Assembly: GCA_951406725.2 (NCBI GenBank)
Contig: OX597820.1
Span: forward strand, 122,388,001 to 122,452,000
DNA from: Octopus vulgaris
Lineage: Eukaryota
Reading direction: 5' to 3'
DNA: 64,000 nt
The notes beneath the pieces were generated by a model. It was not told the origin of the DNA, ran no database searches, and was given only the letters and a program-made list of their open reading frames with translations. Shown piece by piece: positions 6,781 to 55,245 of this stretch (position 1 is the first letter of the stretch; each line of letters begins with the position of its first letter). A program made the position numbers and the translations under genes.

Positions 6781-6960
6781 TAACTTATAAAATAAGGGCA
6801 AAAGAAAAATTCTAATGCCAAATATGCCAAAAAAAGACAAAGTGTCAATAACCATTATAATTTATAATTCTTATTATAAATTATAATGATTATTGACAAT
6901 TTGTCTTTTTTTGGCATATTTGGCATTAGAATTTTTCTTTTGCCCTTATTTTATAAGTTA
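6781..6960. repeat. Near-perfect palindrome, 88-bp arms, 4-nt loop
   Basis: 6781-6868 is the reverse complement of 6873-6960 with about 2 mismatches. Starts at a (TA)n tract. Confidence 0.95.
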
Positions 6961-7049
6961 TTTATAAATTTAACCTTTAAAGATATTTTTTGTTATGCTG
7001 GCCATTGATAAATTTTTTTTTTCCGAAAAAGATGTTATCCTACATTAGT

Positions 7050-7089
<40 letters not shown>

Positions 7090-7318
7090 TAGATTTAGTT
7101 GCACATCACAAAGGGTAGAAAGTGAGAATGTAATTAGTAGAAGCAAATGGCAAAGGAAGTGTTACCAGCTTGTTTGTCTTCACCTCAGTTCAGAAATCCA
7201 CATATACTATAGAGAGGGTAAATACTATACAATTGGGCAGTACATTAAGCCACATCCCTCAGTTCCCTGAACTGGCAAAAATATGTAGCAAAACATAAGC
7301 AATGTATTACCAGAACAT

Positions 7319-7705
7319 GGAGGCGCAATGGCCCAGTGGTTAGGGCAGCGGACTCGCGGTCGTAGGATCGCGGTTTCGATTCCCAGACCAGACGTTGTGA
7401 GTGTTTATTGAGCGAAAACACCTAAAAGCTCCACGAGGCTCCGGCAGGGATGGTGGTGATCCCTGCTGTACTATTTCACCACAACTTTCTCTCACTCTTA
7501 CTTCCTGTTTCTGTTGTACCTGTATTTCAAAGGGCCGGCCTTGTCACTCTCTGTGTCACGCTGAATATCCCCGAGAACTATGTTAAGGGTACACGTGTCT
7601 GTGGAGTGCTCAGCCACTTACACGTTAATTTCATGAGCAGGCTGTTCCGCTGATCGGATCAACTGGAACCCTTGTCGTCATAACCGACGGAGTGCTTCCA
7701 TATCC
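7319..7705 (+). mobile_element. tRNA-derived SINE (family 1), full length
   Basis: A box TGGCCCAGTGG and B box GTTTCGATTCC. Approx. 12-bp TSD attac(c/t)agaaca. Near-identical copy at 49639. Confidence 0.88.
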
Positions 7706-8614
7706 ATTACTAGAACACAAACAAAGCTATCATTTGGTAAGCAATAGGTCTAACTTTTACCTACTTTAGTCATAAAAGAAATTTATAAAATAAGTAAAAC
7801 TGTTATTCAAAGATTTGCAGTAAATTTTAATTTACAATATATGGTACCCTATATAATTAAGAGAGAACGATATTGAGTAGGATGGTGTTGTAGTATCAAG
7901 TTTATAAACCCCGCTGTCTTGTGTGCAAATGATGTTGACAAAATGCAACTATTAACCAAACTGAATATTCTATTATATCCTCAAAGTCTTTTCTATCAAA
8001 AGTGGGTTTTGAAGGAAGTTAGATATTTGGACCAGGATAGACCTGGGGAAACGAGTGAGGCTTTTGCTGCTGTGCCCAGTGGACTTTGTAGGTAAAGAAA
8101 GGGGATCATGTCAACAAAGAGGTCTGTAGGAACAATGCGAGGAGTCTTGAGGAGCAAAATGGAATCTGTACAAATGCACAAAAAATTTTTAAAAAAAACT
8201 GGTGCCCCAACTTGACTGAAACCAATAGAAAAAGACACCCAAACATTTATTACTTTTTTGTTTCATTATATTATTATTTTTATTTCATTTTCTTTTTAGG
8301 AATTATTGTTTTATTTTATTTTTAACTCAACTTTTGTTTTTAGTTTTAATTTAATTCCATTTGCTTTTGTTAATTTTGTAAATTTAGTTTTATGTTTATT
8401 TTTATTTGTATATCCTTTAAAGTGTTTACACAGTTTTCCTTTCTTATCAGTTTTGAATTTAATTTTTATTTTCCTTTCATGCAACAAATAGGATAAAAGA
8501 ATAATAAAGTAAATTACAAAAGCATTAATCTTTTACACATTTCCATTTCTAATTTGTTTTTGACCTCAAACTCACTTCATATCTTATTTTCATTTTTTTT
8601 TTCCCACCTCATAG

Positions 8615-8827
8615 TGGACTGCATAAACAACTGCTCTAGCAATGGCCTATGTAGCCTGGGTCGATGCATATGTTTCCAGGGCTACAAAGGTCCTAGTTGT
8701 AACCAGCAGGACATTATTAACCTTGAGCATCTCTGCTCTAAGGACTGCTCAGGTCATGGTACCTATAACATTAAGACGGACCAATGTAACTGCGATTGGC
8801 ACTTCACTGGTGAAAAGTGTGAAACAG
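8615..8827 (+). CDS. TENM: Teneurin internal exon: EGF repeats 4-5
   Basis: Pyrimidine tract + tag acceptor, AG|gtaacc donor, phase 1-1. Encodes DCINNCSSNGLCSLGRCICFQGYKGPSC...CSGHGTYNIKTDQCNCDWHFTGEKCET. GHGTY (Tyr in place of the third Cys) is typical of teneurin EGF5. Confidence 0.93.
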
Positions 8828-9040
8828 GTAACCAAGCTGAACAGACAAGCAGCCTTCCTGCCCGACGTTTTCTTTTGAAATTCCTACACCCCCCAGTTTT
8901 AATTTGATTCCTCCCAAGCAAGTGCATCCATTTGCCGCTGCATGCCACAGATGATGCTAAAAAAACGTACACATCAGCAGTCTGAAGGAATACATTTGTT
9001 TAACTATTAGTTGCTGCATGCACACAAGATATGACAAATT

Positions 9041-9077
<37 letters not shown>

Positions 9078-9350
9078 AATATATATATATATATATTTAC
9101 ATATATATATATATATGCACATACATATATATGTATGTATATTGCATGTGTACTAATATTTAATAGAGATACATCACGAATTAATGTAGTAAGTGCATAA
9201 GGTCAGTCATGGAAAAAGGCCTTTTTACTACATTTATCTTTGTCTACGTATATGATATATAGATATATATGTATATGTGTGTATATGTGTGTGTGTGTAT
9301 ATATATAGGTATATATATATATATATACATATATGTATATATATACATAT

Positions 9351-9394
<44 letters not shown>

Positions 9395-10639
9395 ACATAT
9401 ATATACATGTATATATATATATACACATATGAGCATACACACGTATAAGTCTGTGTGTGTGTGTGTGTGTATAGGTGTTCTATTTGTTAAAATAATGCAA
9501 CAGCTGTTGAGTAACAAAAGCATGTTAGTCCTCCTTGCTGCCCTTCGAATCTTCATTGCATTTTCCATTCATCTTTATTCATTGTGAACAATCATTGTCA
9601 TCGTCATCATTCTACATCAGCATCCCTATCAGCATAAACATCATAATCTGTTTCTTTTCCCTTGGCATTAGTTTATTTATTTCTGTTGAGCTTTGTACAA
9701 TATACCCAACCTCTCTTGTTTGTCAGAGCTCCATCCCAGCAAGGCATAAATCCTAAACATCTGAACTGATATGGACCCTTTTGTCAGGGACAAGCATTTG
9801 CAGTTTCTGTTGATAGACTTTTAAATATTTTTTTTGTTTTATTTTGTTTTCTTTCATATTATACTTTTTGTGCTGTTTTTTTTATAAATTATGCATCCAA
9901 CAATTTAGGAAAATTTCTAAAGTTAATTTTGTTTTTTGCATTTGGTTCACAAGATACTTGATGTGAAATTATTTTTTAAACAGATTTTGTTGTATCTTGG
10001 CTGGGTCATTATGCCAATAAAGCACAACCTCAAGTTCTATTTCATTTCTTTTGTCATTATTAATAAACCATCTAAACAAATAATTGTTTGATTAATTGCA
10101 TAGTTAATCAATGAATCAGCTAGGGTTCTCAGAGTCCTTTCATCGCCATTTGCAGTGTACATCCCTTAAAATGTTAGGAAAGCAAATGTAACAGCTGAAC
10201 CACAGCATATATAAAAGGGGACTGCTGAGAGCTTGGCTGAGAGAATGGAGGTGCAGTTCAAAGAATGATAGGGAATCTATGTCAGTACTCTATCAGCATG
10301 CTAAGGTTAAGCAGGACAGTATACTGAATAACAGAGATATAGAAACCATATCGAAACACCTGTATGTGCAACATTATGACAGTTATATGAATCTTCGGTG
10401 ACAAGTGAATAGAAACCATCACTTCATAAACAATACAGGTAAAATGCAATGACCACACCACCACTTCCACCTGCCACAACCTACCACCCGGGACAGGCTG
10501 TATAGTATAATGTACAAATCCACATGTATGTGCATACCTATCAGATAATGCTGCTGACATGTTAGATTGTGTCTAGCAGTTCCCTTCAGAGAAAAAGAAA
10601 AAATTTATACCTTGAGTTTAGAAAATATACATTAGAAAT

Positions 10640-10935
10640 TCTTAAGCAGATCAGCCCGAAAATGTCGCTAGAAGCTAGGATCACCAAGCATAGATTGGCA
10701 TATTTCTGTCATATTATGCAGAGAAAATCCCTGGAGAAGGACATCATCCTCGGAATGGTGAGTGGCAAGAGAGGAAGGGGCCGACCAAGAACCCACTGGC
10801 TTGACACCATCAAGAGTGATACCGGAATGGACACAGCCAATCTGAAAGAAGCAGCCCAGGATAGAACTGACTGGAGGACACTGATCCATCGAGTAACCGA
10901 GAGTCGACTTCCACTGAGCGGATAGATAGATAGAT
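10640..10935 (+). mobile_element. 5'-truncated RTE LINE 3' end, BovB-like
   Basis: SLEARITKHRLAYFCHIMQRKSLEKDIILGMVSGKRGRGRPRTHWLD...DRTDWRTLIHRVTESR, then a (GATA)n tail. Matches the RTE/BovB ORF C-terminus pattern. Confidence 0.85.
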
Positions 10936-11674
10936 TGTGTGTGTGTGTCTATAAGCATTTGCGTATTTGTGTGTGAAGTAGGATGGTAGATAAATTCCTT
11001 ATTCCCTTGACTTACTAGAATGAAAGGTAAAGTGATAATGTGATCGGTACCGTTGAGCACCATCTTCCCCAAAACAAAGCGACCAGACTAGAATGTACCA
11101 AAACACACACACACACACTTTTTTCTCATGTTTTTTATTCACATCCTTATGAATACAAATACATAAATAGAATCCGAAAAGTTGGAGACAGACAGATCCA
11201 GTGTTGAGAGGGCACATTGTTGGTGCAGGTGTGAATAGCAAAGAAAGGACTCTAATGAACCAAGCTAGTTGATTGATTATACAGTTAATCAAACAATTTA
11301 TTAATAATTTAAATAGTTAACTGTCAACTAATAATAATAATAATAATAGAAGTGAAACAGAGCCAGTGCATATGTTTCTTTATTAGAATAATGACCCTCC
11401 CAAGCTACAACAAATTCCAATGCTATTACCATTATCATTACTTGGAGTTGATCATGGAGGTAGGGAGCTGAATCAGTTGTGTCCCTTTGTATTCAGAGTT
11501 TGTAAGACGAGTATTTCCCAAACCTGTAGATGTTTTAAACCTCAGATGTCTTATGGATACCTTTCAAAATAATAGACATATTTACCTGTCATAATCATGG
11601 TTGATTATTCAAGTTTGTACCTAACTTCTATGAATATAATCTTATGTATGTTCAGTCAGGGACTTGTTATTATT

Positions 11675-12650
11675 AGAGCTGGCAGAATTCTTGGACAAAG
11701 TGTTGTATGGTTTTTATTCTTGCAGTTTGCATTCTGAGTTCTAAGCAAGGTCAACTTTGTGTTTCATCCTCCCAGGGTTATTAGATTAAGTAACAAGATC
11801 AAAAGTAGGAATTAAACCCACCCCCACCTCACCTTGAAATTGCAAGCCTCTTGCCTCCATTAGTGATTATCGTGATGATAATGATGATGATGATGTACCT
11901 AAATTGGAAGTCATCACCATTATCCTTATAATTAGGGTAGTGAGCTGGCAGAATTATTAGCTCGCTGGGCAAAATGCTTAGCAGCATCTCGTCCATCCTT
12001 ATGTCCTGAGTTCAAATTCCACTGTGGTCGACTTTGCCGTTCATCCTTTTGGGGTCAACAAATTAAGTACCAGTTGTTACACTAATAAGACTCTTCTTGC
12101 TTCTTGTCCTTCTGTGGTCAATAAAATATTATCTCCTGATTTTGACTTATCTCCCAGCAAAATTATGATTGATTACTCAGATGTTTATTAATGTTGTTAT
12201 TATTAGTATTTGGCAAGTGGCAGAATGGCAGAACTGGTAAATGAAATACTTTGCAGTATTCTGCTAGTAAGTTCTAACCTCAGCTGGGTCAATTTTATTT
12301 GCCAACCTTTTGAAGCTGGCAAAAAATACAGAAATCAAATAAATATTCTCAACCCACAAAATTTCTGGTCTCCTCCTCCTCCTCCTGTTAGAAATTAATT
12401 TTCTTATCGTTTAGTATTGGCAATATAGCAAAACAATCAATTATAAGAGCCTTGGGCTAAATTACTTTGTGGTGTTCATTTCAGCTCTTTATGTTCTAAG
12501 TTCAAATCCTGCCAAGGTCAACCATGTATTTCTTCCTTTCGGAACTGGTAAAATAAGCTTTCAGTCAAGTATTAGAATCGATTTAAATGTCTAACCATTT
12601 CTTCTCAAAATCTTTGACTTTGTGCCTTCATTAGAAATTATTATTATTGT
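11675..12650 (+). mobile_element. Cluster of about four decayed copies of SINE family 3
   Basis: Recurrent GAGCTGGCAGAAT...TGAGTTCAAAT...GTCAACTTTG..TTCATCCT units separated by (TTA)/(TGA) tails. Confidence 0.65.
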
Positions 12651-15600
12651 TATAGAAACAGAGTAACAGAAATGGTAAAGCAAAAGACTTACTATCATGT
12701 GTACTGGCACCAACATTAGCTTCTTCTAAACTCATTACAATAATTGAAAGAAGAGTGAGTCACATTCTCACTGGTTGGGAATCCAGGGACCAAATCCAAT
12801 CCCCTCCAGCCTATGGCTCTGTAACCCTCTACAATGAAAAAAAATCATCCTTTTTTGTTTTTATCATTGATTTTTCATCTTTATTTCATATAAATATAAT
12901 ACAAGTTTTATTTTATGATTATGTTCTGAATTGATACAATTATTATTACTACAAATACTACTAATAATAATAATACTTCAGAATTAGAAGACAGAAAGGA
13001 GGAAAAAGAGACAGGGAAGAACAGTTTGTTGAAATCCAGTGTGTTAAGGGAGCTACAAATGTGTGAGAATGGGATTAGAGTGTTATCCGACAAACTTGAG
13101 CTGAAAGGACAGAGAGGAAACCCTCGCTGGTGGGATGGTCTGTCTCTTGGCCCACGCTTCTCAGAAGACACATTCAGGGAGTCACAGGAAAGACAAAGAG
13201 AACTGTCGTTCTTAGGTAACTTATGCGCACAGCTGTAGAATAGAGCTTCTGCTCTGAAATGAAGAATTAGTCAAAAGTCACCAGTTTCTGCTTAACCCCA
13301 CTGAAAAACAAATGTATACACTTGCATATATATATGTGTGTGTGTAGACATGCATGCATATATGCATATCCCATGCACATAATATTCATGCATTGTAGCT
13401 GCCACCCCAATTTACACCATTAAACCTGCAATGTAGTTGGCCATCCTTTTAATCTCATTGATATCAACTTGTTAGTTTTTATTCTAAAGTCTGCCTCCCT
13501 TATTTTAAGAGGTTGGTTGTAGAGACTGAGCAGTTGGTTGAATCAGGATAGATGTAGTCTATTCCATGCAAAATAAAATAATTAAAATTAGTTCTTAGCC
13601 ACTGGAATCTCCCATATTTTTTTGTTGTTGCTTCCATTACATAATTCTCCCAACCTCATAATTACTGTCATTAGTATATTCATTGTGTTTATTAAAGTAT
13701 CTATTAAAGCCATTAAAACCATTATTTGAATTTCTTTATGAATTCAACTCACCAAATACATTTCGATATACTTGGTGTAAACTTTCTTACCTTCTCTGTT
13801 GTCAGTATTCTTGACACATTTCCACTGTATCCCACCTTATCAATCTGACCTACCATCTTTATATAAAAACAAAAATGAATGTTTGAGAAGTAACCCGCCA
13901 AAATATGGGACAAATAATGTATATGAATGTATCTTATTTACTGCTTTATCATTGAGTGAGAGAGCAGCACATGCCATCAAAGTGACACTGGGGTACTAGT
14001 ATATGAGACTCGATATACCGATCATGGTTACCTGTCTGATAAGTGTACACCAGGCACATGCATCACAAACCTATGTGCATAACATTGAGAACTCATATCA
14101 AGATAAACAACACATGACCTTGCAGGTGAGGGCCCAGTTAGAATTCTCTTCTGGTCGAGTAGCCCACCCCGCTCAAAAGGTCCCTGAATAAGGTTTAAGG
14201 ATGATGAACAAAACACCCATGTTTCCTCAGGTGAGATATCCAAACTCCAAAGAAATTCCTCTCAAACCATGGCTATGATGCTCTCCCACTACTTCTGCTC
14301 GTGATTAGAGATGCACATATCGTCAGCCACTAAGGAATATACTCAACTGGTTAAGGTCAAACAACTGACAAGTAAATCTGTAGTATTGAGCAGAATATTT
14401 ACTGTAACCCATCTTTTAGTATTACTTTTTTTTCTTATTTTATTAGTCTTGTTTACATGCAAAACCCTCACAACTACTCACACACATATGCACACACATT
14501 TTTTTTGTTTTGTCCTGTGCTGTACATAATGTCTTCTTTGTGAAAATAAAGAAGTCATTATTATTATTATTATTATTTTATTATTATTATTATCGACATT
14601 AACAAGTTAGAGAATTTGCAGAAATAGCAGTTTAATGAACAATTTTTTGCAAAGTTAATAAATTGAGAGCCAGCAAAATAAGGTGTCCATATAATTGACT
14701 ATAGCTCCTTCCACTACCAAATTTGTCACCCGGTTCCCCATTCAGTTCTCTCACATAGTATCTTAACTTCAAATCTGGCAGTGACTGCCTTTGGCTGTTA
14801 CCTTTGCTGGGAGACTAAAAGGAGAGCCTCTGTTTATACGAATGAAGTTACAGGTGTCTGTAAATCATTATCGTTATTTCTAAACATTTACTTTCTTTAC
14901 GTTTCAACAAAAAAAAAAGAAAGAAAAAGAAAGAAAGAAAGAAAAAAGATTAGAGAGAGAAAGAAAGTAAGGAAAATAGAATGGGAAGAAATATAGAAAT
15001 GGTTGTCAAAATAAAAATTCTGTCCAATGCTTGTTGGGAATGTTAGCATTGTGATTTCAAATCCTGATAAGTTTAGTCTTGCCGTTCATATGTGCCATCA
15101 ATGAAATGAACTCCATTTACTTTACTAGGGTTTATTCATTCAATGGTAACACTTCCCCAACAATAATTCTAAAACTAAAGGCAAATTAATATATTTTGTT
15201 AATATTGGGGCTATTTACTATTAAAGTATACATTTTTTAGATATCAGTTCTGCAGCAGCCGATATTAAACAAATTTGGATGACAACCTCTGTGGATCAGA
15301 CAAGACTTAGGCAAGGTGTCTATCATTAAAGTGTATGTATGTGTGTGTGTGGGTGCATGCTTGTATGCTTGTGTATGAATCTGTGCAAATGTTTACATTC
15401 TTCATCTCTGCATAAAATTATGTGACCAACTGCAACTGTTGTGTTGTCATGTTGTGTTGCTTGTCAACGAACCATCTTGTAGCTCTGTCTCTTGAAAGAT
15501 GAATGGCATAAAAAGTCCCATGCTTGGAACACAGGTAAGAGTCTGTAGGGGAACATTTGCCAGTAAAATAATGCCTAAATAATGCAAGCACACACACAAA

Positions 15601-17406
15601 CACAGATGCACATCAATATAAATATCTATGTGGGAAGTTCTGTGTGAACGTATACAAATGTGTGTGTGTGTGTGTGTGTATGAGTCTATGTAATTCTCAA
15701 GGGAATACTGTTTCTTTCTCAAAGAAGATCTTGACCTCAATGCAATATCATTGACCTTTTACACTGTCAACTCCATCATCATACCATTGTACATCAACCC
15801 TTTATTTCCTTAGCTGTGTGTCATCATTTGATCAAATATTTCTCACCAGAAGGGCACAAAGAGTATTTCACTAACAACAGCTTGCCAACCAGTCTTGAAA
15901 TAAATAATAAAAAAATTTTTTTTTTAAAAAGTAAAAAAAAAACATACACTTGCCTACTAACTAACTAACTACTGACGTCATGTTGTTGCAATTTCAGTGC
16001 TTACCAAGAAAAGCCAAACTAATTTACTTTTCACTAATGTCATCCATTGTTTTATATGTCAAAAGTTGCTTGCTGAGGCAGTCGTCCTTTTTGTTTTGTG
16101 TTTTATTACTTATAGTAGACGCTACAAGAGAAATAGGGGTAGATTTAGAGATAGGCTACCATTGAATACATGAGACACCAGATCCTTGCTTTGAAAATAA
16201 TAATAATAATGATAATAATAGCTGGAGGTATATAAAATAGGTATGCAGAGAGACAGAGTTGGTGAGTGTGAAACACAAAGATTACCTTAACTCATATCAA
16301 ACTCACTGCCAAAATTTTGGGGGACAATCCCATTTTTTTTATACAACAGTACAGCTTATTGACATTAATTGCTCCCAGAGAAATGTGGATGAATAGAGAT
16401 AGCAAATTGCTAGTCTGATAGACATGCATACATGTGTGTATACATATATGTGCATACATACACTCATATATGTGTATAGATAGATTGACTGACGGATATG
16501 CGCACCATGAGTGTGTAAATAATCAATTTGTGTCTGATTCTGTATGAGGGAGTGACAGAGTTAACAAAAGTCTCAATTCAACCCATATTAAAAGGATTTT
16601 TTTTTGCTGTTTTTCTGGTGCCCATGATATTGCAGCTACAAACAACCACCAACTAACCACTGAATAACCACTGTTGCTGCTGCGACTGTTATTGCTTCTC
16701 ACGCCCTACTCTTTAAAAATATTAACCACAATCCCTTCAACTAACCCTTAACCATTCTTTTTCTGTTCTAGCATTTTCATTGGAAGGCATTAACAAAGGT
16801 ATATAAATATGTGTAACTAATCTGATTGCTGTTGTTGTTGTTGTCATTGTTATTGTCATTTCATTGCATTTCCTTTTGCCCTGTCAGCATCTGTCTGCAC
16901 ACATCGTCACACAAACATGCATAAATATGTTTTGAAACCCCATAGTAAGGGCTAAACCCCAAAGTAAGGGCTAAATTTTCCGAATTATTGGTAGACCCTG
17001 GGCTGGTATTCATCCCTGGTTCCCATGATGTTCTCTACATATACTAGACTTATTCTTTTATCATATATCGCTAAATCATTTCTAGGCGACCTTATATGGA
17101 GATGGAGAAATGAAGTAATTTCTTCTTGGTAACAATTTGGTGCTCATTCTCATAGGCAGCATATTCACAGAATGTGGAGAACACCTTGTCTGGGATTTCA
17201 CTTCAGTGAAATGTTTCAACTGGTGCCAGAGCAAAGTTACAAAGATAACACTCACTTTTACCGGAGTGGTTGGCGTTAGGAAGGGCATCTAGCTGTAGAA
17301 ACTCTGCCAGATTAGACTGGAGCCTGGTGCAGCCCCTGGCTTCCCAGACCTCGATCGAACCGTCCAACCCATGCCAGCATGGAAAACGGACGTTAAATGA
17401 TGATGA

Positions 17407-17479
<73 letters not shown>

Positions 17480-18149
17480 TATATATATGTATGTATGTGT
17501 ATTTTTAAATATTTTTTTCATTCTAGTTTCAGCTCAGATTTGTGGCCATGCTGATGCACCGCCATTTGTACATATATATATATATATATATATATAAGGC
17601 AGAGGGGAGAGAAGGAGGGAGGGAGTTAAAATTGTCTGCCAAGCATTAGATGTTTAATGGACAAGCTTTTGTTGTTCTGCACCAGGCTTCTCCAAACTCC
17701 CTGATATACTGCACACAGAAACCAAATCTGTTGCTCTTGAAAAACCAGTACCTCTGCCCCCCCCCCCTCTTTCCCTCCCCCACACACATGTACAGTAGAT
17801 GCACATTTTCAGTGGATTCCCATCTTTTATGTCTTTGATACTTTTTCCATGAAAAAAAAAAATATGACAAAAATACCAATAAAACATTTCATTGAAAATA
17901 TAATCAAATGATTAATATTAAACAACAACTATACAACAACAACAGCAACCGCAACAACAACTGCCGCCGCCGCATGTTTATTTATTTTGATTATCAACAT
18001 ATTTTTTTTATTTTTTCCTTTTTTGTTTCTTTATTTCCGTAAGCTTTTATTTCCTTTTGTATGTTTATCATGATTTGGTGCATCATTTCAGATATTTGTC
18101 TATTTTATTATTTCAGTGGTGTATCATATATATATTTGTGTATGTATGT

Positions 18150-20448: not shown

Positions 20449-20479
<31 letters not shown>

Positions 20480-43851: not shown

Positions 43852-45285
43852 GTAAGCACTCTTTTTTTTCAATTTCTTTGTATGATGGGATTAATTCCCT
43901 TTTAGTTAGAACTGGAGAGGATAGCTTTGTATTCTTATTCTGCTTTCTCCCACCTTCTCCTTCCCGTCTTTTTCATTATTGTAATCATGACTATAATTTT
44001 CTTCAAGCAGTTGCACACACACACACACACACACACTCATTCATTCATTCATTCATTCATATACATGTGTATATATGGCATAGATTAGATGGTTTAATGA
44101 TCTGATGTATCTAAGGACTGCAATTTACTCTAATTTCTGGATGCCCTTCCTGATGCCAAATCACTTTACAGTGTGGAGTGAATGCTTTTTTCATGCCATG
44201 CACATTATTGAGGTCACTATGTAGTTTGCAGGGCTATGAGCCCTGGTGGGGTGGTTGGGAAGTTAGTTTCATGCTAGGGAATGAGAGTCTTACTATGAGA
44301 GAGGAGGTGCAAGGCAGGGTCCTGCATGGTTACATCTAGTGGGGGAAAAAGAAAAAGACAAAATATATAGAAGGAGCTGCAAGACATAGATAATGGCAAT
44401 AAGGTGCTCAGATGCCCACCCTCCACAAGTCACAAGATGAGTAGAAGCTTGATTTACAAAATTGTCTGATTGCATGAGTGAATGGAGTTTGGGAAAGCAG
44501 ATTGCTAAAATGGATAGGGCTGGAGGGTAGGGGAGACAAGGGCTACGAGCTGAGGGAGATAGAGGGATGCAGAAGTGTGGCAGTGGGGTGGGAAGCTGGA
44601 GCAGTGAAGAGAATATAGTTGCTGGGGAGGGGGAAGGAGCAGGCATAATGCATGGATGGGGAGTCACCGTTAGGGACGGGGAACCCAAAATATAACATTT
44701 CCAGAACTCATATCAGCATCATCATCATCATCATCTCCATCATCATCATTATTTAAGGTCCACTCTCCACATGCTGGCATGGGTTAGATGCTGGAGCTGA
44801 TAAACCAGATGCCCTTTCTAACACCAAGCACTCCAGGAGTGTAATGGGTGCTTTATATGGTACCGGCAATGACCGTGACAATTCACAGGTGCCCTTCACA
44901 TGGTACCAGCAATGACCCCAGCTATGATTCATGGGTGCTATCTACATGGTAGCAGCTACAACCATGACTATGATTCATGGATGTCATTTTCATGGCACTG
45001 TCAACCACAATGGTTCATACTTTACACAGTACCAACAATGTCCATGACTACAATTCACAGGGGCCATTTACACGGTATCATCAATGACCACAACTATTCA
45101 GAGGGGCCAACGACTAGAACTACAATTCATGGCTGCCATTTATATATGTGTATATATTATAAAATACGTAAACATGAAAAATCAGAGTAAACAATATTTT
45201 GTACAAAAATTCAAATAATAAATTAATCAGTTTTAATAAAAGTTGTAGAGAGTGTTTCTGCTGGTTTAGCAACTTCATAGACATT

Positions 45286-45479
45286 TACATTATTTAGATT
45301 ATTTACATTTGATGGATATTTGTCCTCGTCTTGTTTGTTGTTAACACAACGTTTCAGCTGATGTACACTCCAGCCTCCATCAGCCGAAATGTTGTGTTAA
45401 CAGCAAACAAGATGAGGACAAATATCCATCAAATGTAAATAATGTAAATAATTCCTCATCTCTTAAATATAGAACTGTG
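45286..45479. mobile_element. Penelope-like fold-back insertion with TSD and a degenerate hammerhead core
   Basis: 75-bp inverted arms (45289-45363 / 45378-45452) and a 12-bp direct repeat TTCATAGACATT on both sides. Minus strand reads CTGATGG-AGGCTG...CAGCT-GAAACGTT. Confidence 0.8.
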
Positions 45480-45562
45480 TTCATAGACATTGCCCTCAAT
45501 GCTTGTACAAAGAAAGGATTGACCGAATTGCATTTGGCAAAGTACAACAGTTCTCAATACAT

Positions 45563-45600
<38 letters not shown>

Positions 45601-46869
45601 GCCAGTGCCGCCTTGACTGGGTTCTGTGCCAGTGGCACATAAAAAGCACCGACCAACTGTGGTCATTGCCAGCTGCCTCTGCAGTGGGTGCTTTTTACGT
45701 GCCAGTGACATGTACAAAGCACGCACTACACTGTCGGAGTGGTTGGCATTAGGAAGGGCATCCAGCTGTAGAAACACTGCCAGATCAGACTGGAGCCTGG
45801 TGCTGCCTCCTGGCTTCCCAGACCCCAGTCGAGCCTTTCAACCCATGCCAGCATGGAAAACAGATGTTAAGATGATGATGATGATATATTTCAGTTGAAT
45901 TTTTTCTTAATTTCAAGGATTTAAAAGTGGTTGAGTATCTCTATTGCAACACAGGTTCACATCCCATTGTCTCTAGACTCTAAGTATATTCCCAGTCAAG
46001 AAAAGAAAAAAAAAAATAAATGGAAATATGGAAAATCTGAAACATAGATTATGAAAGTAAAAGTTTGTGGGGGAAGAAATTCTGACAGCATTTAACATAA
46101 ATTGGAGGAAAAGAAAATGAAGCAACAAGATGAATTGGAAGAAGAAAATAGTAAAGGAAGGAGGGGGTGAAGTATATAGAAGGAATGCAAATAAGAAATA
46201 GAAGCATAAAAGTAAATAGATGAAGAAGAATTGTAGGGAGATGATGGGGAAATGTTTAAGGAAGGGGAAAGATATAGTAGTAAGAAGATAGAAAGAATGA
46301 GGAAGTCTGATAAGATTGGAGGAGGAGGAGGAGGAGGACTAAGACAATGGGAAATGGAAATGGTGGAGAAGTAGAAGAATGGAGGAAAAAATAGCAGAAT
46401 AAAGAGAGAGGAAGTCTGTTGAGGAATAAGGAAGAAGAACTGAAAAAGAAATTAGTTTTATAAAGGATTTTTGTTATTGCAAGTGTGTGTAATTGGCAGT
46501 GAAACATGTCAAATATAATTTAAGCAAGAATGTAGAAAATAAAAGTCAGTTTGATAGAATGTAATGCGAGACAAACAAACTAGAGAAAACACACACACAC
46601 ACACACACACAAGCGATATGTAATTGCATATATTTATGAGGACATAAATTTATTTACTCCTACACTAACAGGGTCTATGTAAACTGTGTATAAACAAGTT
46701 CCTATAAATTCTTAACATTCACAAATATGTTCCATATATTAATATACACAGAATGACTATAACAACAACAACAACAACAACAAAGATTTATGTACGAATA
46801 AACAACCACTGCTAAAGACAGGTGTATATTGAAATATACTCACAACACACTCACACACACACACATACA

Positions 46870-47555
46870 CACACACACATGTTTACATTAAAACACACAC
46901 ACACACATCCACACACATGTTTACATTAAAACACACACACACATCCACACACATGTTTACATTAAAACACACACACATCCACACACGTTTACATTAAAAC
47001 ACACACACACACACGTTTACATTAAAACACACACACACACATGTTTACATTAAAACACACACACACACATCCACACACATGTTTACATTAAAACACACAC
47101 ACACACATCCACACACATGTTTACATTAAAACACACACACACACATCCACACACATGTTTACATTAAAACACACACACACATCCACACACATGTTTACAT
47201 TAAAACACACACACACACACATAATACCAAAAAATGACATATATTAAAATGCAAACAAGCAGGCATGCATTTGAACAAATGCACATACATATACATGCAC
47301 GTATCTATGCCTGTACAAAAACTGACACACACATCCACACATATGTTTACATTAAAACACACACACACATCCACACACATGTTTACATTAAAACACACAC
47401 ACACACATCCACACACATGTTTACATTAAAACACACACACACACACATAATACCAAAAAGTGACATATATTAAAATGCAAACAAGCAGGCATGCATTTGA
47501 ACAAATGCACATACATATACATGCGCATATCTACGCCTGTACAAAAACTGACACT
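46870..47555. repeat. Minisatellite CATGTTTACATTAAAA(CA)nTCCACACA with a superimposed segmental duplication
   Basis: About 14 units. Block about 47195-47325 is repeated at about 47421-47552. Confidence 0.92.
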
Positions 47556-48489
47556 TACACAAAGAAGTGCACACACACACAGACACACACACACACACAC
47601 ACACACATGCACGTGCACACAAACAAACACAAGAAGCATAGTCAAAAACATAGACAAACACACAAACCCACACATTCACTTACAATGCTTTCTCCATACA
47701 ATGTATAAAATCCTCACCAAATACATGAGCAGAAATATTTAAAAGCATTGAAACATGAAGAAACAGAACTATTTAGTGACCTATAAATAGAACAACTTCA
47801 CTAATGATTCGAAAATTATGGTAAACTATGCCTGTGTTTCAATCAAATATAATAATAAATATAAATTGACATAAGGCTCCAAATTTTCTGAGTAAATTTA
47901 GCAGATAGCATAATACTAAGAATATTAATTAAATATAATTTATCTGATCCCAACGAATGGGAGGCAAAGTTGATTTAACATTGAAAGTAAAAAAGATGTC
48001 ACTCTTTTTTTGTTTGTCCACCAAGTTGAGTAATATTGGTTTCAAATTTTGGCACAAGGCCAGCAATTTCAGGAGAGGGGTTTAAGCTGATTACATTGAC
48101 CTCAGTACATAACTGGTACTTATTTTATTAATCCTCAAAAGATGAAAGGTTAAGCTGACTTTGGACCAAGTTGCGTATTATAATTAAGGAGATGGTGGTG
48201 GTGTAATATTGGTTTTGTGCGAAACTGTTTGTAGGAGTGGAAATATTGGCTGTAGATAAAGTTTACACTTGAAAATACTTTGGGTGGAGGGATGGAATTG
48301 CTCTGTTGTTTATTTTTGTCTGTAAGTCCTAAATATCCATTCATGCTTTTCTTGTTGTTATTTCTGAGAACATCTCTTAGAAACAGGATAAAAAATTTAC
48401 AAGACCTGACTGTCCTGTCTTTCTGTGTCTGTGGTATTCCATTATCTGACAAATTCTTCCTGATAAGATGATTGTGTGTTATATGAGGG

Positions 48490-49110
48490 GTATCAGCAAT
48501 TCAAGTTAACAACAATGGGGTAAAAAGATTAGGGAGATGAAAACAAGGTTGTGAGTCAATCAGGGATAGTTGCAGACATGCTGAAGATAAGTGACGAAGA
48601 AGAATACGTGATTAGCACCTGGTTAGTTAATCAAGTTATATCAGGACGTATCGGACCCAATGACCTGCAAAATAGTGCCATCATAAACTGCTATAAAGTG
48701 AAAGGAGAGGCCTTAAAGAGAGGACATTATAGGGAAATCAGACTTCTGGATCAAGTTCTAAAGGTGATAGAGAAAGTCTACACAAATGATCCATGATAGG
48801 GTAGACCTGGATGGGATTCGGTTTGACTTTGTGCCTGGAAGAGGTGCTACGGGTGGAATCGTCATAGGGACGTAACTGCAGAGGAAAATACTTCACATTC
48901 TGCGATTTGGTGGTCACTGAAGAAAGCAAGTGTAGAAAAATGTTTGTGAAGGTGGCACAAGATGTGTACAAAGATGAAAGAAGGAAAGTGAGACATGACA
49001 ACAGATTCAGTGATGAATTTAGCATGAAGGTAGAAGGCCATCAAGTAGTTTTCTATTCATTATTGTCCCACAAGACATCGCAGGGGAGTTTAGAGCAGAT
49101 TGTATTTTTA
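48490..49110 (+). mobile_element. Decayed RTE LINE reverse transcriptase fragment
   Basis: SGIVADMLK...IINCYKVKGEALKRGHYREIRLLDQVLKVIEKV; frameshifted. Confidence 0.75.
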
Positions 49111-49638
49111 CCTCAATCCTTAAGAGACCAATCTAAAGCAGAGAGTATAGCTTGATGCAGTTGTTTAGCTTTTGACATTGCCTCTACTCAGAGTTACAAG
49201 CGGAATATAGCTCATTTGGAGCACTACAATTCCAGTCTGTTATATATTTTGAGTATTGTTATCACTAGCGATCTCAAGATATAACTTTGTATTTTGTATT
49301 TTATGTATATGCATTTACAAAATATATAAAATATAAAATTTAAATTATTTAAATTTAAAATTTTAAATTTATATTCATAAAATTTATATTTTTTATATTT
49401 ATTTTTATGTTTTGGTTTATGTCTTGCACTGTTTGATTTGCCTAATAGTGGTTTTATCTCTAATTTAATTTATATTTATTTATATTTATACTGTGAAATT
49501 TGATTTAATCCTAAATCTAATTTTCCCCTGTAAGTTTGGATATACTCCCTAATATTATTATTATATGCATTTACATATACATATATGTGTGTCTGTGTAT
49601 GTGTGCACGTGTGATATCCTGTATATATGTATGACAGT

Positions 49639-50026
49639 GGAGGCGCAATGGCCCAGTGGTTAGGGCAGCGGACTCGCGGTCATAGGATCGCGGTTTCAAT
49701 TCCCAGACCGGGAGTTGTGAGTGTTTATTGAGCGAAAACACCTAAAAGCTCCACGAGGCTCCTGCAGGTGATGGTGGTGATCCCTGCTGTACTCTTTCAC
49801 CACAACTTTCTCTTACTCTTATTTCCTGTTTCTGTTGTACCTGTATTTCAAGGGGCTGGCCTTGTCACTCTCTGTGTCACGCTGAATATCCCCGAGAACT
49901 ACGTTAAGGGTACACGTATCTGTGGAGTGCTCAGCCACTTACACGTTAATTTCACGAGCAGGCTGTTCCGTTGATTCGGATCAACCGGAACCCTCATCGT
50001 CGTAACCGACGGAGTGCTTCCATCCA
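49639..50026 (+). mobile_element. tRNA-derived SINE (family 1), full length
   Basis: Copy of 7319-7705, with TSD tat(g/c)tatgacag. Confidence 0.88.
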
Positions 50027-50093
50027 TATCTATGACAGCATCTTTGTGTATTTGTTCACTGGTTCACTGAAAATCAATGTTTTATTTTTGCAG

Positions 50094-50329
50094 CACATCA
50101 TCCATAGCCTACAAATATTACATGACTGTGAGTCCTGTTGATGGCCGCCTCTACATATCAGACTCTATGAGTCATAAGATTCTGCGAGTAAAGACAATGG
50201 GTCCAGTACGACGCCTTGAAGAAAACTTTGAAGTCATTGCTGGTAATGGGGAGGAATGTACACCTGGAGAGACTGCTCTCTGCGGGGATGGAAGCTTGGC
50301 TGTGAAAGCTCGCTTGAGTCATCCTAAAG
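50094..50329 (+). CDS. TENM: Teneurin internal exon: NHL repeats
   Basis: tgcag acceptor, AG|gtagga donor, phase 2-1. YKYYMTVSPVDGRLYISD...AGNGEECTPGETALCGDG...LSHPK. Confidence 0.96.
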
Positions 50330-50409
50330 GTAGGATTGTGTGTTACCTGTTACTTTGCATTTGTTTTTTTAATTTCACACTTAATGAAACCATATTGGCA
50401 GAACTATAT

Positions 50410-50730
50410 ATTCCCAACCACATGACTGAGTTCAGTCCCCCATGTGGCACTTTGGGCAAGAGTCTTCTTTTATAGCCTAAGCCTTGTGCATCATGGATTT
50501 GGTAGAAAGAAGCCCATTGTATATGTGTGTATGTGTGTGTGTGTGTGTGTTTATGTGTGTGTGTATTTGTCCTTGAACACTACTTGACAACTGGTGTTGA
50601 CGTGTCCCTGTAACTTAGTGGCTCAGCAAAAGAGACCGAGATAGAATAAGTACTGTGGTTGATCTATTTGACTTAAATACCTCGAGTTGTTGCCCCAGTA
50701 TGGTCCCAGTCTGACGAGTGGAACACAGTA
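50410..50730 (+). mobile_element. SINE family 2, older diverged copy
   Basis: CCAACCACATG...TTGGGCAAG...GATAGAATAAGTACT motifs. Other partial copies at about 4706-4775, 4912-5062, 58760-58990 and 62010-62160. Confidence 0.7.
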
Positions 50731-51138
50731 AGTACTCCCACAACCGGTAACTCTCAGGCATGTTTTCATGGAAGACTTTAAAGCTTGTTAAAAACCATCA
50801 TGTGGCGTCAAGACAAAGACACACAGACATTCATGCACACACTCACTCACACACACACACACAAATAGAATGGAATGATAAGTAATTGCTTATGGGAGAC
50901 CAGAAAAATCTAAGAGCCTGGGGATTTTTAGTTGCCTGTTTTTTTTTTAATTAAACCTTAATGCAGGAACTACTGTGTGGTCTACCATAAATACTGAGTG
51001 CTTTATCATATTCTTCAACAGTCCCAGCACAAGCAACATTGCATTGTCTGAATTTTACCATAGATTTTTTTTCTGATCATCTCTTCTGGTGTCAGGTGTA
51101 ATAACTTATTTTGGTTACATTTTCTTCCTTTCATCCAG

Positions 51139-51296
51139 GTATTGCAATCAACAAAGATGGTGTCATCTACTTCGCTGATGGTCCCAACATTCGCCATGTC
51201 AGTACCAATGGCCGCATCAGCACCCTAATTGGTTCTCAAGAACTGGTTGGTAAATGGACACCATTGCCATGTGATGAAATTGTATCTGCCGACAAG
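51139..51296 (+). CDS. TENM: Teneurin internal exon: NHL repeats
   Basis: ccag acceptor, AAG|gtaaat donor, phase 1-0. GIAINKDGVIYFADGPNIR...WTPLPCD. Confidence 0.96.
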
Positions 51297-51397
51297 GTAA
51301 ATATTGCTCACTTCATTTCTTTCTTCACATTGCATAATTATCTACAAAACTTTATACCTATTTTGAGTTACTCGCTATATATATATATATATGTATG

Positions 51398-51551
51398 TAT
51401 ATTAAGTATAGGAAAGAATGGAGCTGAACGAAGATTTAACAAAATTCCCTTATTTTATTTTCGACATATGTTTCAAAACGTATGTCAAAAATAAAATAAA
51501 GGAATTTTGTTAAATCTTCGTTCAGCTCCATTCTTTCCTATACTTAATATA
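51398..51551. repeat. Near-perfect palindrome, about 76-bp arms, in (TA)n; Penelope-like
   Basis: Arms differ at 3 positions. The centre carries GAAACATATGTC on the minus strand. Confidence 0.93.
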
Positions 51552-51704
51552 TTAAATTAAACTTCAAATTTCTGCACTAAGGCACGGAGTTTATACCCTA
51601 TGGTCGTAACTTCAACCGTGCTTTTTCTGTTGTGAGTTTGCTACCAGGTATCGGTTATCTTTCGAATTATCCGTAATAAGATAATTCATTTGTCTACTTA
51701 TATA

Positions 51705-51742
<38 letters not shown>

Positions 51743-54039
51743 ACAAAACCTTTAGAAACTAGAAACTGTTGAACAAGTAATACTTTTACCAGAACTGGAA
51801 TGCTTATGAAGCACAATCACACAGTATCTTTGTATATCATCATCGTCTCATCGTCCTCATAATTTAATGTCCATTGTCCATGCTAGTGGCATGTGTTGAC
51901 TGGATCGACAGGATCTGCTGAGCCAGAGGACTGCACTGAATTTCAGTGTTTGCTTTTTTATTGGTTTCTATAGCTGGATGCTCTTCCTATCACCAACCAT
52001 TACACAGAGTGTATTGGGTGCTTTTTATGTGGCACCAGCACTAGCAGAGTAACTTGCAAGATAGGACCCACAGCTGTGGAGGTGCAGTGTTGAGGGAGGT
52101 GTTTTAATGCTAGGTGAGGAGAGGTTAGAGTATGGCAGAGCATCAGAAGCATGTGTTGCTGTAGAGTAGATACATGGCTACCCCAGTTAAAAAAGAGAAA
52201 TGTGGCAAAAATGTGACAGGAGGATGAATAGAAGAGAATTAGTTTAAAGGAGAGGACAGGGTGAGTGGGTAGGTAGGTAAGTAAATTTGCAAGGATGCAA
52301 AAGGAGTCTAACAGGTGGATGGAGATAGGGGTGAATGTAATCAATGGGAATCTGGGTGGAGGTGTGGTCAGTTGTGGGGGAGGTGAAAGCGGTAGGAGTG
52401 GGTCAAGGAGATAATGAATAGCAGCACAGAGGATGTGAAATGTTTGGGGATGAGGTGCAAAAGAGATGCAAGGTGCCAAACGAGGTCAAAGGTTCACAGG
52501 AATGAAAATACTGGGGGTTGAATCGAGGTAGCAGGTGAGAGGTGCTTTTGGCAAAATATGCAGAAGAAATGGAAAGGTAAACAGGGTGTTCAGAGGGGAA
52601 TAAGGGGGTAAGGAATGATAGTGAGAATGCAAGAGACAAAGGAAATAGTTCCAGGGAGAGTGAGAGGTACGTTTGTCTTAGGAGCTGAATGAACAGTGCC
52701 AATGATGGACACAGGGTGTAGGGAAGATGAAGAGGTGTTAAAAAAGGGATACAACAGGAAGAGACTGGATCCAGAGGTAATGACATAAACACATATTTGC
52801 TGTGATAGAGAAGGTAGTGGTGAGGGTATTCGGTTCACAATCGTAAGGGTTTCACTCCCAGCAGGGCCTTGCATAATTGAACAAGACGGTTTATTTCCCA
52901 TTGCTCTTGTCCCCACCTCAGATGGCAAAAATTAGTTGTACATGCATTTTAAAGGGCCACTTATTGTGTTATGATGAATCAAGGTATCATGAATTCAAGG
53001 AATTCAAGATTGTAGAGTGCTCAGCCACATGCCCATTAATTTCATGAGCAGACAGTTCTGTTGATTGAATCAACAGGCTGCCCCATCCCCATAGCTGATG
53101 CGGGGTACCGGTTTTGCTGTGATGCAGGAGTCTTCTTCAGCACAGCATGTTGCCAATCAACTTAGTCCTTTCTCATCTCCTCTGTATTCCACTACAACTA
53201 CAGATCATTTTTCACTACTTTGTCCTGCATTTTCATTGGTCTTTCTCTTCTACACATTCCATCCTCTTTGAGAGGTCAGCACTTTTTAGGGAGCTGTCAG
53301 CATCCCTCCACATCATAAGACCAAACCAGCACAGTCATCTTTCTTGCACACTGCATCTAATTCTTCTTATGTATGTCTGTGTGTGTGTACACAAGCACAT
53401 ACATCTAATGTATAGGTATATATAAATATATATATATATATACACACATACATATACACATTTATATATGTATAATATATAGGTAGATAGGTACACACAT
53501 ATATACACACATATACATTTTTCATTTAGAAAATTAACTGACCATACCATATTCCTCCCTCCAGTTGTTGAGAGTTTATGTGCCTATATAGCTAAGTGCC
53601 TTACATGTGCAAAAGCAACGGTCACTCTTAGACAGCCATAATAAGCCACCATATAAATGTACATAAATATAAATATATAGAAATGTATACATATATACAC
53701 ACACACATTGATCAAGGGGAAAGATATAATCATGGTAATCATTTCCTCAGCGTATTATGCCGGATCCTAAGCTAGCACAGTCTTCCAATAATCAAAGGGA
53801 GGTTAGTGAAACTCCGACTAATTAGAAAGGGGAGCACTTTGAAACTCCCACTAAAGCCGCAGTAGGCATAATATACACTCTGCAGAGTGTATATAAAAAT
53901 AAAAATAAAAGTAATTGAAGCAAGGAAAGAGTAAATCTAACTGAGGCTTTGTTCAGTTGCAGGAACCAACATAACCGGGATTTTGCTGCTTCTTTCCTTA
54001 CTTTCATTACTATAATGTCATCTCTGGCTGCTGTCCATC

Positions 54040-54660
54040 AGGCATCAGCTTTGGCTGTTCTTGTCCAGTATTTATCTCTAGTAGGCTTACATCGGGGCCT
54101 CAAGGTCAGTTCTTGACCTGCAGCTGCAATAGCATCTGCTGCAGGGGGAGCTACTTGATGCAACAGAGAAGTGATGCCTCTCATGGGCTCTTTCATATTC
54201 TCTCTGTTGTTTCTCTTCAATGGCTGGAATTGTGTTCTTCAGTGATTGGAACTTTCCTCTCTGGAGTCTGGTGGGATGCCGGAGTTCTTCAAATGTCTTT
54301 TCAGCACATCCCTGTATCACAATATCTGGCCATGTTGGCTCCACCTACCCTGATGCACTTCAGCATAGCAAACTGCCTTTAGGAGTCAGCCACTCTCCAT
54401 CCTGCAAACATGCCCTGCCCAGCGGAGTTGCAATGAGGTAATGAGGGCATCCACACTAACTGCACTAGTGCACTGCAGGACCTCTATTTCGGGAATGCAA
54501 TCCTGCCATTTGATATGCAAGATGAAATGCAGATGATGAAGTTGGACCCTCAGGAGAGGGCCAAGTATTCTATGGCATAGAGGAGACACCCATACACACA
54601 TATAGAATTTTGGTGATGCTAGAGCTACAGGGGCTAACATTTTCAGTGGGACTGGCCACT
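54040..54660 (-). mobile_element. Decayed RTE-type LINE 3' fragment
   Basis: ILHIKWQDCIPEIEVL...QLRWAGHVCRME motif. Confidence 0.75.
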
Positions 54661-55029
54661 CTGGGCAATATGACTGGGAACAACCTTCTTAACTGCACAA
54701 CACCACACACACTCATACACACACACACACAACCTACATATAGATGTAGCTGTGAAAACAGAAAATTCAATAGAACACTCTTACAGATGGAAAGTACCAA
54801 GTTGTCCACTTTTTTCCCCATCTCTTGGTGTACCTTACCCAATTTGCTGTCTTTACAGCTATTCTCTTGCACTCAACATTTCCTTCATCTCTAAAAACAC
54901 CTACTGACTTGATACTTCCATGTTTGTTTATAAAAAGTGGTCTCATACATACATACATACATACATATATATATATACATGCATACATACATACATACAT
55001 ACATATACATATATATATATATATATATA

Positions 55030-55245
55030 TAAAGTTAATCCAAACAAGAAAACACAAAAAAAAACAAAAACACAACAACGCGAGGACGTGGAACAAATAA
55101 AGTATTATTGGATGCTCAGGAAAGAAGGGAAGAAGGAGGTTTAACGTTTTGAGCGGAGCTCTTCGTCGGAAACATAGGAGAAGGAAAGATCCCGAGAAGG
55201 GAAGACAGAGGAAAAAAATCGCCAGTGGTACTCACGAGGTCACAT
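55030..55245 (-). mobile_element. Penelope-like terminal fragment with degenerate hammerhead ribozyme
   Basis: Minus strand GTTT-CCGACGA-AGAGC-TCC-GCTC-AAAAC-GTT-AAAC at about 55139-55173, inside (TA)n. Confidence 0.65.

What the first reader, a model, noticed from the sequence alone, without database searches (positions are those of the whole stretch)
6781..55245. Dispersed fold-back hairpins and minimal hammerhead relics in teneurin introns (Penelope-like)
Seen: five long inverted repeats with mutually unrelated arm sequences (6781-6960, about 24481-24648, 34145-34229, 45289-45452, 51398-51551). Four of them abut (TA)n tracts. Hammerhead-like motifs occur at about 22670, 27850, 34180, 45350, 51465 and 55150. 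Established: Penelope-like elements carry minimal dimer-acting hammerheads and often have inverted terminal repeats, and coleoids have very high ADAR A-to-I editing. Inference: several Penelope-like families target TA microsatellites and leave compact dsRNA modules in this neuronal pre-mRNA. Three hairpins and one hammerhead relic lie within about 100-250 nt of exons and could affect editing or splicing.
Basis: partly seen in the sequence, partly recalled or inferred. Interest (0 to 1): 0.72.

Follow-up and report, generated by a model that had tools for sequence, protein, structure and literature searches.

The report
Two-armed Penelope insertions litter teneurin introns
The five hairpins in this octopus-type teneurin gene are short back-to-back insertions from five different families of Penelope-type jumping elements (one a protein-free ribozyme repeat), likely made when the enzyme copies its RNA from both cut DNA strands; nothing found shows that they regulate the gene, and one is missing in another animal.

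Summary
All five hairpins are real. Each belongs to its own multi-copy family and has Penelope-like (PLE) anatomy: an inverted arm without a tail, joined to a direct arm with one. Over five families, 139 of 169 two-armed insertions end one arm at each of two fixed sites, and only 3 use one site twice. Four families run upstream into GIY-YIG coding sequence (one copy has an 896-codon RT-EN frame). The 6781 family is an ORF-less ~470-nt tandem hammerhead unit (retrozyme-like). The 45289 copy is not TA-targeted: it has a 12-bp target duplication and a tRNA-box head. No hammerhead in the window is intact, and 22670 is not one. The regulatory idea is unsupported: exon proximity depends on the threshold, the 51398 insertion is absent from another animal's DNA contig, and the neighbouring exon splices normally. 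Editing of the arms could not be tested. The anatomy and (TA)n-targeting octopus Hydra elements are in print. This scan has already noted the twin-primed retrozyme and tRNA-headed families on other DNA of this genome.

The parts
6781..7050 (+). Family F6 insertion: tail-less inverted arm 6781-6868, direct arm 6873-6960, tail to 7050, between TA tracts. A truncated piece of a ~470-nt ORF-less tandem hammerhead unit; the ribozyme lies ~75 nt upstream of the kept part and is missing here
22663..22691 (.). 12-bp fold-back at the truncated end of an old repeat (22678-22850, ~80% identity to other copies); not a hammerhead
24408..24648 (-). Family F24 insertion: tail 24408-24480, hairpin 24481-24648; cut short before the ribozyme. 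A longer copy (L148) holds a hammerhead and RT and EN pieces
27546..28090 (+). Family F27 one-armed end repeat with a hammerhead relic at about 27809-27897 (long stem II; last core A changed to G); other copies run upstream into a Hydra-like EN
34145..34300 (+). Family F34 insertion: hairpin 34145-34229, tail to 34300, TA on both sides; only the 3' half of the hammerhead is kept (about 34170-34194, - strand)
45274..45491 (+). Family F45 insertion: 12-bp target duplication 45274-45285 / 45480-45491, hairpin 45289-45452, short tail to 45479; hammerhead relic on the - strand at about 45344-45383. Longer copies carry (AAT)n, a tRNA-box head and, upstream, a GIY-YIG frame
51398..51698 (+). Family F51 insertion: hairpin 51398-51551, tail to 51698, in a TA tract; two hammerhead 3' halves at the joint (51463-51486). 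Absent from the contig of another animal. Longer copies end an 896-codon RT-EN frame (L144)
55030..55243 (-). Family F55 one-armed end repeat with a minimal hammerhead at about 55135-55175 (first G of GAAA changed to A), antisense to teneurin; no coding partner found
8615..56474 (+). Host: 12 teneurin exons (8615-8827, 22076-22258, 24106-24252, 25025-25232, 34403-34522, 37820-38099, 39259-39526, 41613-41753, 43599-43851, 50094-50329, 51139-51296, 55400-56474)

Best explanation
Each hairpin is one short insertion of a Penelope-type element, made of a tail-less inverted arm joined to a tailed direct arm, and it likely forms when the element's enzyme nicks both target strands and starts reverse transcription from each, once at each of two fixed sites in the RNA. 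Both cDNAs would stop early and be joined head to head, often at a few shared bases, which gives a fold-back with a variable centre; hammerhead pieces survive only when an arm reaches back to the ribozyme 50-100 nt upstream. The TA-targeted families F51, F24, F27 and F34 end Hydra-like coding elements. F45 ends an element of the Penelope/Poseidon type (clade name from recalled motifs). F6 has no ORF and would borrow such an enzyme, probably from a circular or multimeric RNA. In the teneurin pre-mRNA the arms are predicted to pair and may be edited by ADAR incidentally, without a selected role. Shown: anatomy, two fixed ends, ORF links, target duplication, empty site. Inferred: two-strand priming, single RNA template, the enzyme used by F6, neutrality.
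For: Two-armed insertions with one arm ending at each site: F34 32 of 38, F45 37 of 46, F51 20 of 24, F24 24 of 24, F6 26 of 37; the same site twice in 3 of 169; the other 27 had one end I could not class. The F34 and F45 loci were picked by a short pattern, not by architecture. The tail-less arm reaches further upstream in 40, the tailed arm in 39, and they are equal in 60 of 139, so the arms are cut short independently. A subfamily letter agrees between the arms in 14 of 14 F34 insertions, at allele shares of 22 and 45. In vitro, an anole PLE nicks and extends both strands and starts at two sites that bound the tail (PMC11167929). ORF links: L144 has an 896-codon RT-EN frame (Atlas 0.98 to HTH_animal/GIY-YIG clusters; 51 homologs at E<=1e-30, nearest named from Argonauta); F24; F27; F34, EN piece ~1.3 kb upstream in 1 of 2 long copies fetched, E down to 8e-6; F45, 8 of 68 loci run past the head, and 6 of them translate as an EN C-terminus. 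Target duplications of 8-14 bp in 18 of 46 two-armed F45 insertions, TA on both sides in 2 of 46. F6: 9 of 27 pattern-picked insertions run from tail into the next head; 471-nt monomer, 33% GC, longest Met frame 46 aa, circular fold z = -5.2. Empty site: contig 8 of run X15 spans 51365 to 51749 with 40 nt instead of 383.
Against: Two-strand priming is read from end products; no enzyme from this genome was assayed. The F51 and F24 loci and about half of the F6 loci were picked by BLAST with the hairpin as query, which favours this architecture. Arm concordance could also come from subfamilies active at different times. No coding partner was found for F55 or F6. Pfam gave no hit on L144 or on the F45 EN, and Rfam gave no tRNA hit on the F45 head. 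Neutrality rests on one empty site in one run and on contigs that cannot show rare editing. The first exon-proximity tests were nominally positive (p 0.010-0.047).
Confidence: 0.75

Rival explanations
1. One priming event only: the first cDNA folds back or switches to itself as template, and the second arm is a DNA copy that the endonuclease trims at the inner site.
For: It also gives one arm of each kind and matching arms. Craig et al. suggest that the tail comes from EN resolution of an intermediate (PMC8557442 passage). 60 of 139 insertions have arms of equal reach.
Against: The tail-less arm reaches further upstream than the tailed arm in 40 of 139, in some F6 copies by most of a unit; a snap-back copy cannot do that without a later deletion. 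Both strands are primed on RNA in vitro.
Confidence: 0.13
2. One reading: the hairpins near exons are kept as dsRNA modules that steer ADAR editing or splicing of teneurin.
For: Long stable stems with 26-68 paired A's. 3 of 5 lie within 250 nt of an exon, p 0.010-0.021 under uniform placement. Young repeats are the main ADAR targets in animals, octopus included (10.1101/2020.01.19.911685 passages).
Against: Against other repeats in the window the excess is p 0.047 (4 of 8 vs 6 of 40) and p 0.10 once two more PLE-like remnants are counted (4 of 10 vs 6 of 39); it is not significant at 150 or 400 nt. The nearest hairpin is absent from another animal. Three RNA-type runs join the exon normally with no other letters. 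The families have thousands of copies (4951 and 4281 exact motif matches), so some will fall near exons.
Confidence: 0.07
3. The hairpins are MITEs or fold-back DNA transposons that target TA.
For: Short, high-copy, inverted arms, TA flanks.
Against: The tail is on one side only, the centre varies from copy to copy, many copies have one arm, and long copies run into RT or GIY-YIG frames and hammerheads.
Confidence: 0.03
4. The palindromes are assembly artefacts.
For: Fold-back reads can create palindromes (general knowledge). No read spanning a window hairpin was seen.
Against: Arms differ by 5-22%, ends are fixed family-wide, one copy has a target duplication, and the site has an empty counterpart.
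Confidence: 0.02

Closest known systems
Hydra clade of C-terminal EN+ PLEs, including Hydra-1_Obim of Octopus bimaculoides (Craig et al. 2021, PMC8557442: passages, section 11, supplement searches)
   Same: RT plus C-terminal GIY-YIG, DKT motif, CxxC and CxH round the EN end, hammerhead near the 3' end, (TA)n targets, tail and inverted 5'-truncated arm; L144 follows the printed Hydra-1_Obim protein motif by motif (compared by eye).
   Different: Different families: six motifs of the window families were not found in that supplement (line breaks could hide a match). L144 has an Asn-rich insert in place of the CxCX5C linker, RWL for RWK, and is longer than 3 kb with its 3' region.
PAc, Poseidon of Anolis carolinensis (Frangieh et al. 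2024, PMC11167929: main text read)
   Same: Two RT start sites that bound the tail, both strands nicked and extended, AT-rich targets, uncleaved hammerhead in the template.
   Different: In the text read, the paper does not count how the two sites pair across the arms of genomic insertions; here tails run 30-150 nt, and F45 carries tRNA-type boxes right after the stop codon.
Metazoan non-LTR retrozymes (Cervera and de la Pena 2020, PMC7229834: part 2 of 6 and passages; Li et al. 2026, 10.64898/2026.07.22.740005: abstract, passages, section 14)
   Same: F6 is an ORF-less, low-GC, self-paired tandem monomer with a canonical type I hammerhead.
   Different: 470 nt, slightly above the 150-450 range given; inserts as two back-to-back arms with two fixed ends into (TA)n. 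Those papers infer PLE mobilisation from co-occurrence and homology; 'tail', 'twin' and 'octopus' do not occur in the 2026 main text.
Schistosome Sm-alpha / Sj-alpha SINE-like elements (seen second-hand in the review PMC6765202, passages)
   Same: Pol III-type head followed by a hammerhead.
   Different: The F45 head is part of the end repeat of a coding element, and copies insert as two-armed fold-backs with a tail.

Membership tests
Penelope-like elements (EN+) | ORF with RT and GIY-YIG endonuclease linked to the repeat | tested here: met
   F51 whole frame; F24 RT and EN pieces; F27, F34 and F45 EN. Not found for F55 or F6.
Penelope-like elements (EN+) | One-sided tail and inverted 5'-truncated copy | tested here: met
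   139 of 169 two-armed insertions in five families; F27 and F55 are one-armed in the window
Penelope-like elements (EN+) | Type I hammerhead in the end repeat | tested here: met
   Descriptor hits near the locus centre: F51 8 of 9, F55 16 of 19, F27 12 of 19, F24 4 of 7, F45 33 of 70, F34 15 of 70, F6 20 of 30 (counts include some neighbours from other families); window 0
Penelope-like elements (EN+) | Ribozyme self-cleavage, as monomer or dimer | not testable with these tools
   Short palindromic stems III in six families fit the dimer type (review PMC6765202); no assay
Hydra clade | DKT motif; CxxC and CxH round the conserved E and N; (TA)n target | tested here: met
   L144 has all; L148 has DKT and CxxC; TA flanks
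Hydra clade | CxCX5C linker | tested here: not met
   Absent in L144 (F51), present in L148 (F24); F51 is therefore called Hydra-like, not filed as a member
Hydra clade | RWK motif | tested here: inconclusive
   RWL in L144, KWK in L148
Hydra clade | Groups with Hydra references in an RT tree | not tested
   Reference sequences were seen only as supplement text; no tree was built
Penelope/Poseidon clade (F45) | RT motifs and tree position | not tested
   Only the EN C-terminus with C-x-C and two His was recovered; the clade label comes from recalled motifs and earlier notes
Non-LTR retrozyme (F6) | Short tandem ORF-less monomer, low GC, canonical type I hammerhead, strongly self-paired | tested here: met
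Non-LTR retrozyme (F6) | Expressed as linear and circular monomer RNA | not testable with these tools
   Only contigs were on offer
tRNA-derived SINE (F45) | tRNA-derived head | tested here: inconclusive
   A-box and B-box motifs read by eye; no Rfam tRNA match
tRNA-derived SINE (F45) | Stands apart from any coding element | tested here: not met
   8 of 68 loci continue upstream of the head, and 6 translate as an EN C-terminus ending about 25 nt before it
MITE | Equal terminal inverted repeats at both ends, fixed interior | tested here: not met
   One-sided tail, variable centre, one-armed copies
Intronic editing or splicing element | Editing on or near the stem | tested here: inconclusive
   No other letters in exon 51139-51296 in 3 runs; intron flanks not covered; contigs drop rare variants
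Intronic editing or splicing element | Present in other individuals | tested here: not met
   51398 insertion absent from contig 8 of run X15; the other four not tested

The most novel reading that the evidence does not exclude
Octopus PLE enzymes of two clades prime both ends of one DNA break on a single RNA with a strict one-site-per-strand rule, and the same footprint on the ORF-less F6 repeat is direct genomic evidence that a non-LTR retrozyme circle is copied by a PLE enzyme; one coding family has also moved a tRNA-type promoter into its end repeat.
Probability: 0.55. Interest if true: 0.65.

Novelty: new variant of a known kind. Interest (0 to 1): 0.45.

Why it matters
How PLEs make their tail and inverted ends, and which enzyme moves animal retrozymes, are open questions in the papers read (PMC8557442, PMC7229834). 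These young, abundant families give a countable footprint (one arm per start site, independent truncation) and an intact 896-codon frame with which to test it in vitro. The process also seeds the genome with thousands of ready-made long hairpins in an animal with very active ADAR. For teneurin itself the result is ordinary: intronic mobile-element debris, at least partly polymorphic.

Tried and rejected
1. A C/G difference between the two arms of F34 looked systematic. In pattern-picked loci 12 of 12 scorable pairs were G/G (the 100 listed matches were all of the G form), so it was ascertainment by my query. 2. A fixed 5' end of F34 near the ribozyme: rejected, copies run further upstream. 3. 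F45 as a stand-alone SINE: rejected. The RT fragment beside L222 led to other PLE families; F45 matches turned up in 4 of the 49 loci screened, none shown to be contiguous with those frames. 4. A record of A-to-I editing in the copies: no A>G excess on the ribozyme strand in any of 6 families; T>C exceeded A>G in F6, F51 and F45, uncorrected for shared ancestry and not interpreted. 5. Rfam: no match at gathering score in 7 loci. 6. Pfam misses L144 and the F45 EN; BLASTP of the F45 EN against another PLE gave only E 0.009. 7. No RNA holder listed as such; run kinds are guesses and all are contigs. The intron flanks had no RNA cover. Only the 51398 hairpin was laid. 8. No exons were found before 8615 or after 56474; missed exons would change the distances for 6781. 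9. Literature: 1 paper listed for Penelope-like + hammerhead + octopus; 0 for Penelope + twin priming + inverted + both strands; by title and abstract start, none of the 5 or 13 papers listed for SINE + tRNA + Penelope describes such a head. Subscription journals, Repbase reports and bioRxiv supplements were not searched. Lunse et al. 2017 is not held.
Full report
Setting. The window lies at G000:C7:122388001-122452000 in a 2.8-Gb genome. Pfam places teneurin EGF, NHL and YD-shell domains on the + strand. The nearest named teneurin is from a cuttlefish (89%) and the nearest named homologs of the element protein are from Argonauta, so I infer an octopod. Twelve exons from 8615 to 56474 join in one frame without a stop.

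Observation. All five inverted repeats are present, with 78-95% arm identity and strong predicted folds. Four abut (TA)n. The fifth (45289) does not; it is flanked by a 12-bp direct repeat. Of the six hammerhead-like sites, 27850 (+ strand) and 55150 (- strand) are whole motifs with one core letter changed; 45350 keeps the core on the - strand without the 5' side of stem I; 34180 and 51465 are 3' halves; 22670 is a 12-bp fold-back on an old repeat whose joint happens to spell the 7-mer. A descriptor finds no intact hammerhead in the window.

Families. Each hairpin is a member of its own family: 40 of 40 scored candidates matched in each search (also 27, 28 for the two lone relics). Exact 25-26-nt motifs occur 4281 times (F34) and 4951 times (F45). 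Copies share one plan: an inverted arm that stops at an inner site, a joint at a variable place, and a direct arm that runs on through a 30-150-nt tail to an outer site. This is the anatomy described for PLEs: a tail at one end, an inverted 5'-truncated copy, a hammerhead in the end repeat (PMC8557442, passages).

Link to coding elements. Long F51 copies run upstream through the hammerhead, a TATA-like motif and a 3' region into an 896-codon open frame in L144. [quoted passage not shown] It carries DKT, CxxC and CxH as the Hydra clade does, but lacks the CxCX5C linker, which the F24 copy L148 has. Hydra elements with (TA)n preference are already listed for Octopus bimaculoides, though six motifs of my families were not found in that supplement. 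F27 loci hit the same EN, and 1 of 2 long F34 copies has an EN piece upstream. I first read F45 as a tRNA-headed SINE because most of the first 30 loci stop at or inside a head with A and B boxes (Rfam gave no tRNA hit). Earlier scan notes said it is the end repeat of a coding element. Testing this, 8 of 68 loci continue upstream, and 6 translate as a GIY-YIG C-terminus that stops about 25 nt before the head. No partner was found for F55.

A retrozyme-like family. In F6 the tail runs straight into the head of the next unit: 9 of 27 pattern-picked insertions cross that joint. The 471-nt monomer has 33% GC, no Met frame over 46 aa, a canonical type I hammerhead and a circular fold 5.2 SD below 100 shuffles. 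That fits metazoan non-LTR retrozymes, whose mobilisation by PLEs is proposed from co-occurrence and homology (PMC7229834; 10.64898/2026.07.22.740005; its supplements were closed). I saw the tandem unit before reading earlier notes, which report the same kind of element, possibly the same family, on other DNA and which prompted the formal end count.

Mechanism. Of 169 two-armed insertions, 139 end one arm at the inner and one at the outer site, 3 use the same site twice, and 27 have an end I could not class. F34 and F45 were sampled by pattern; F51, F24 and part of F6 by BLAST with the hairpin, which favours this form. The tail-less arm reaches further upstream as often as the tailed arm (40 vs 39; 60 equal), which argues against the second arm being a snap-back copy of the first. 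A subfamily letter agrees between arms in 14 of 14 F34 pairs, and 21 rare changes are shared within F34 insertions against 235 unshared; this fits one template but also succession of subfamilies. The anole enzyme PAc nicks and extends both strands and starts at the two sites that bound the tail, on uncleaved RNA (PMC11167929). I therefore infer priming from both strands, one site each, early stop, and head-to-head joining.

Host role. Three hairpins lie 101-228 nt from an exon. Under uniform placement p is 0.010-0.021, but the 250-nt limit was chosen from the data. Against other interspersed repeats, classed by eye and leaving out simple repeats, the test gave p 0.047 (4 of 8 vs 6 of 40) and p 0.10 with two further PLE-like remnants counted (4 of 10 vs 6 of 39); p was 0.36 at 150 nt and 0.07 at 400 nt. 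In run X15 one contig spans the 51398 site with 40 nt in place of 383, so that animal lacks the insertion on at least that haplotype. Three RNA-type runs join exon 51139-51296 to both neighbours with no other letters; whether those animals carry the hairpin is unknown, and contigs cannot show rare editing. Young repeats are the main ADAR substrates in animals (passages), so incidental editing is likely, but no function is shown. The copies themselves carry no A>G excess on the ribozyme strand.

Verdict. Real, Penelope-derived, and mostly of known anatomy. What goes beyond the papers I could search is the one-site-per-arm count, its presence on an ORF-less retrozyme-like unit, and tRNA-type boxes in a coding element's end repeat. 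The editing and splicing idea is not supported. Interest 0.45.

Noticed in passing
   Followed up: partly
window 38500-38702: TA-flanked multi-copy end repeat whose relatives show the two halves of a hammerhead core in swapped order; perhaps a Naiad-type end (label by eye).
   Followed up: partly
window 4706-4979: A sixth long inverted repeat made of two pieces of a common SINE-like repeat with TA tracts; not of the PLE type described here.
   Followed up: no
window 56474-56480: The large teneurin exon seems to end at a GC donor; not checked with reads.
   Followed up: no
L161-L180 and L281-L350: Families F55 and F34 carry C in place of the usual U at the second position of the hammerhead core in nearly all copies.
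   Followed up: no
G000; L261-L266, L278: Dozens of young PLE copies with open frames of 750-870 codons (Pfam RVT_1 and GIY-YIG on L263); L263 and L265 end in (TA)n with a variant hammerhead. They suggest active elements.
   Followed up: partly
L141, L142, L144: The full F51 element sits in a duplicated segment; two of three places are within 300 kb of a contig end. Its 5' part is inverted relative to the ORF, and the RT-EN linker holds an Asn-rich insert.
   Followed up: partly
L358-L387, upstream of the hammerhead: The F6 unit has a splice-donor-like motif about 35 nt before the ribozyme; meaning unknown.
   Followed up: no
L042, L046, L175, L324, L385: Different PLE-type families pile up at the same TA tracts, and one inserts into the internal TA run of another.
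   Followed up: no
T>C exceeds A>G on the ribozyme strand in F6, F51 and F45; may be shared ancestry or CpG polarity.
   Followed up: no
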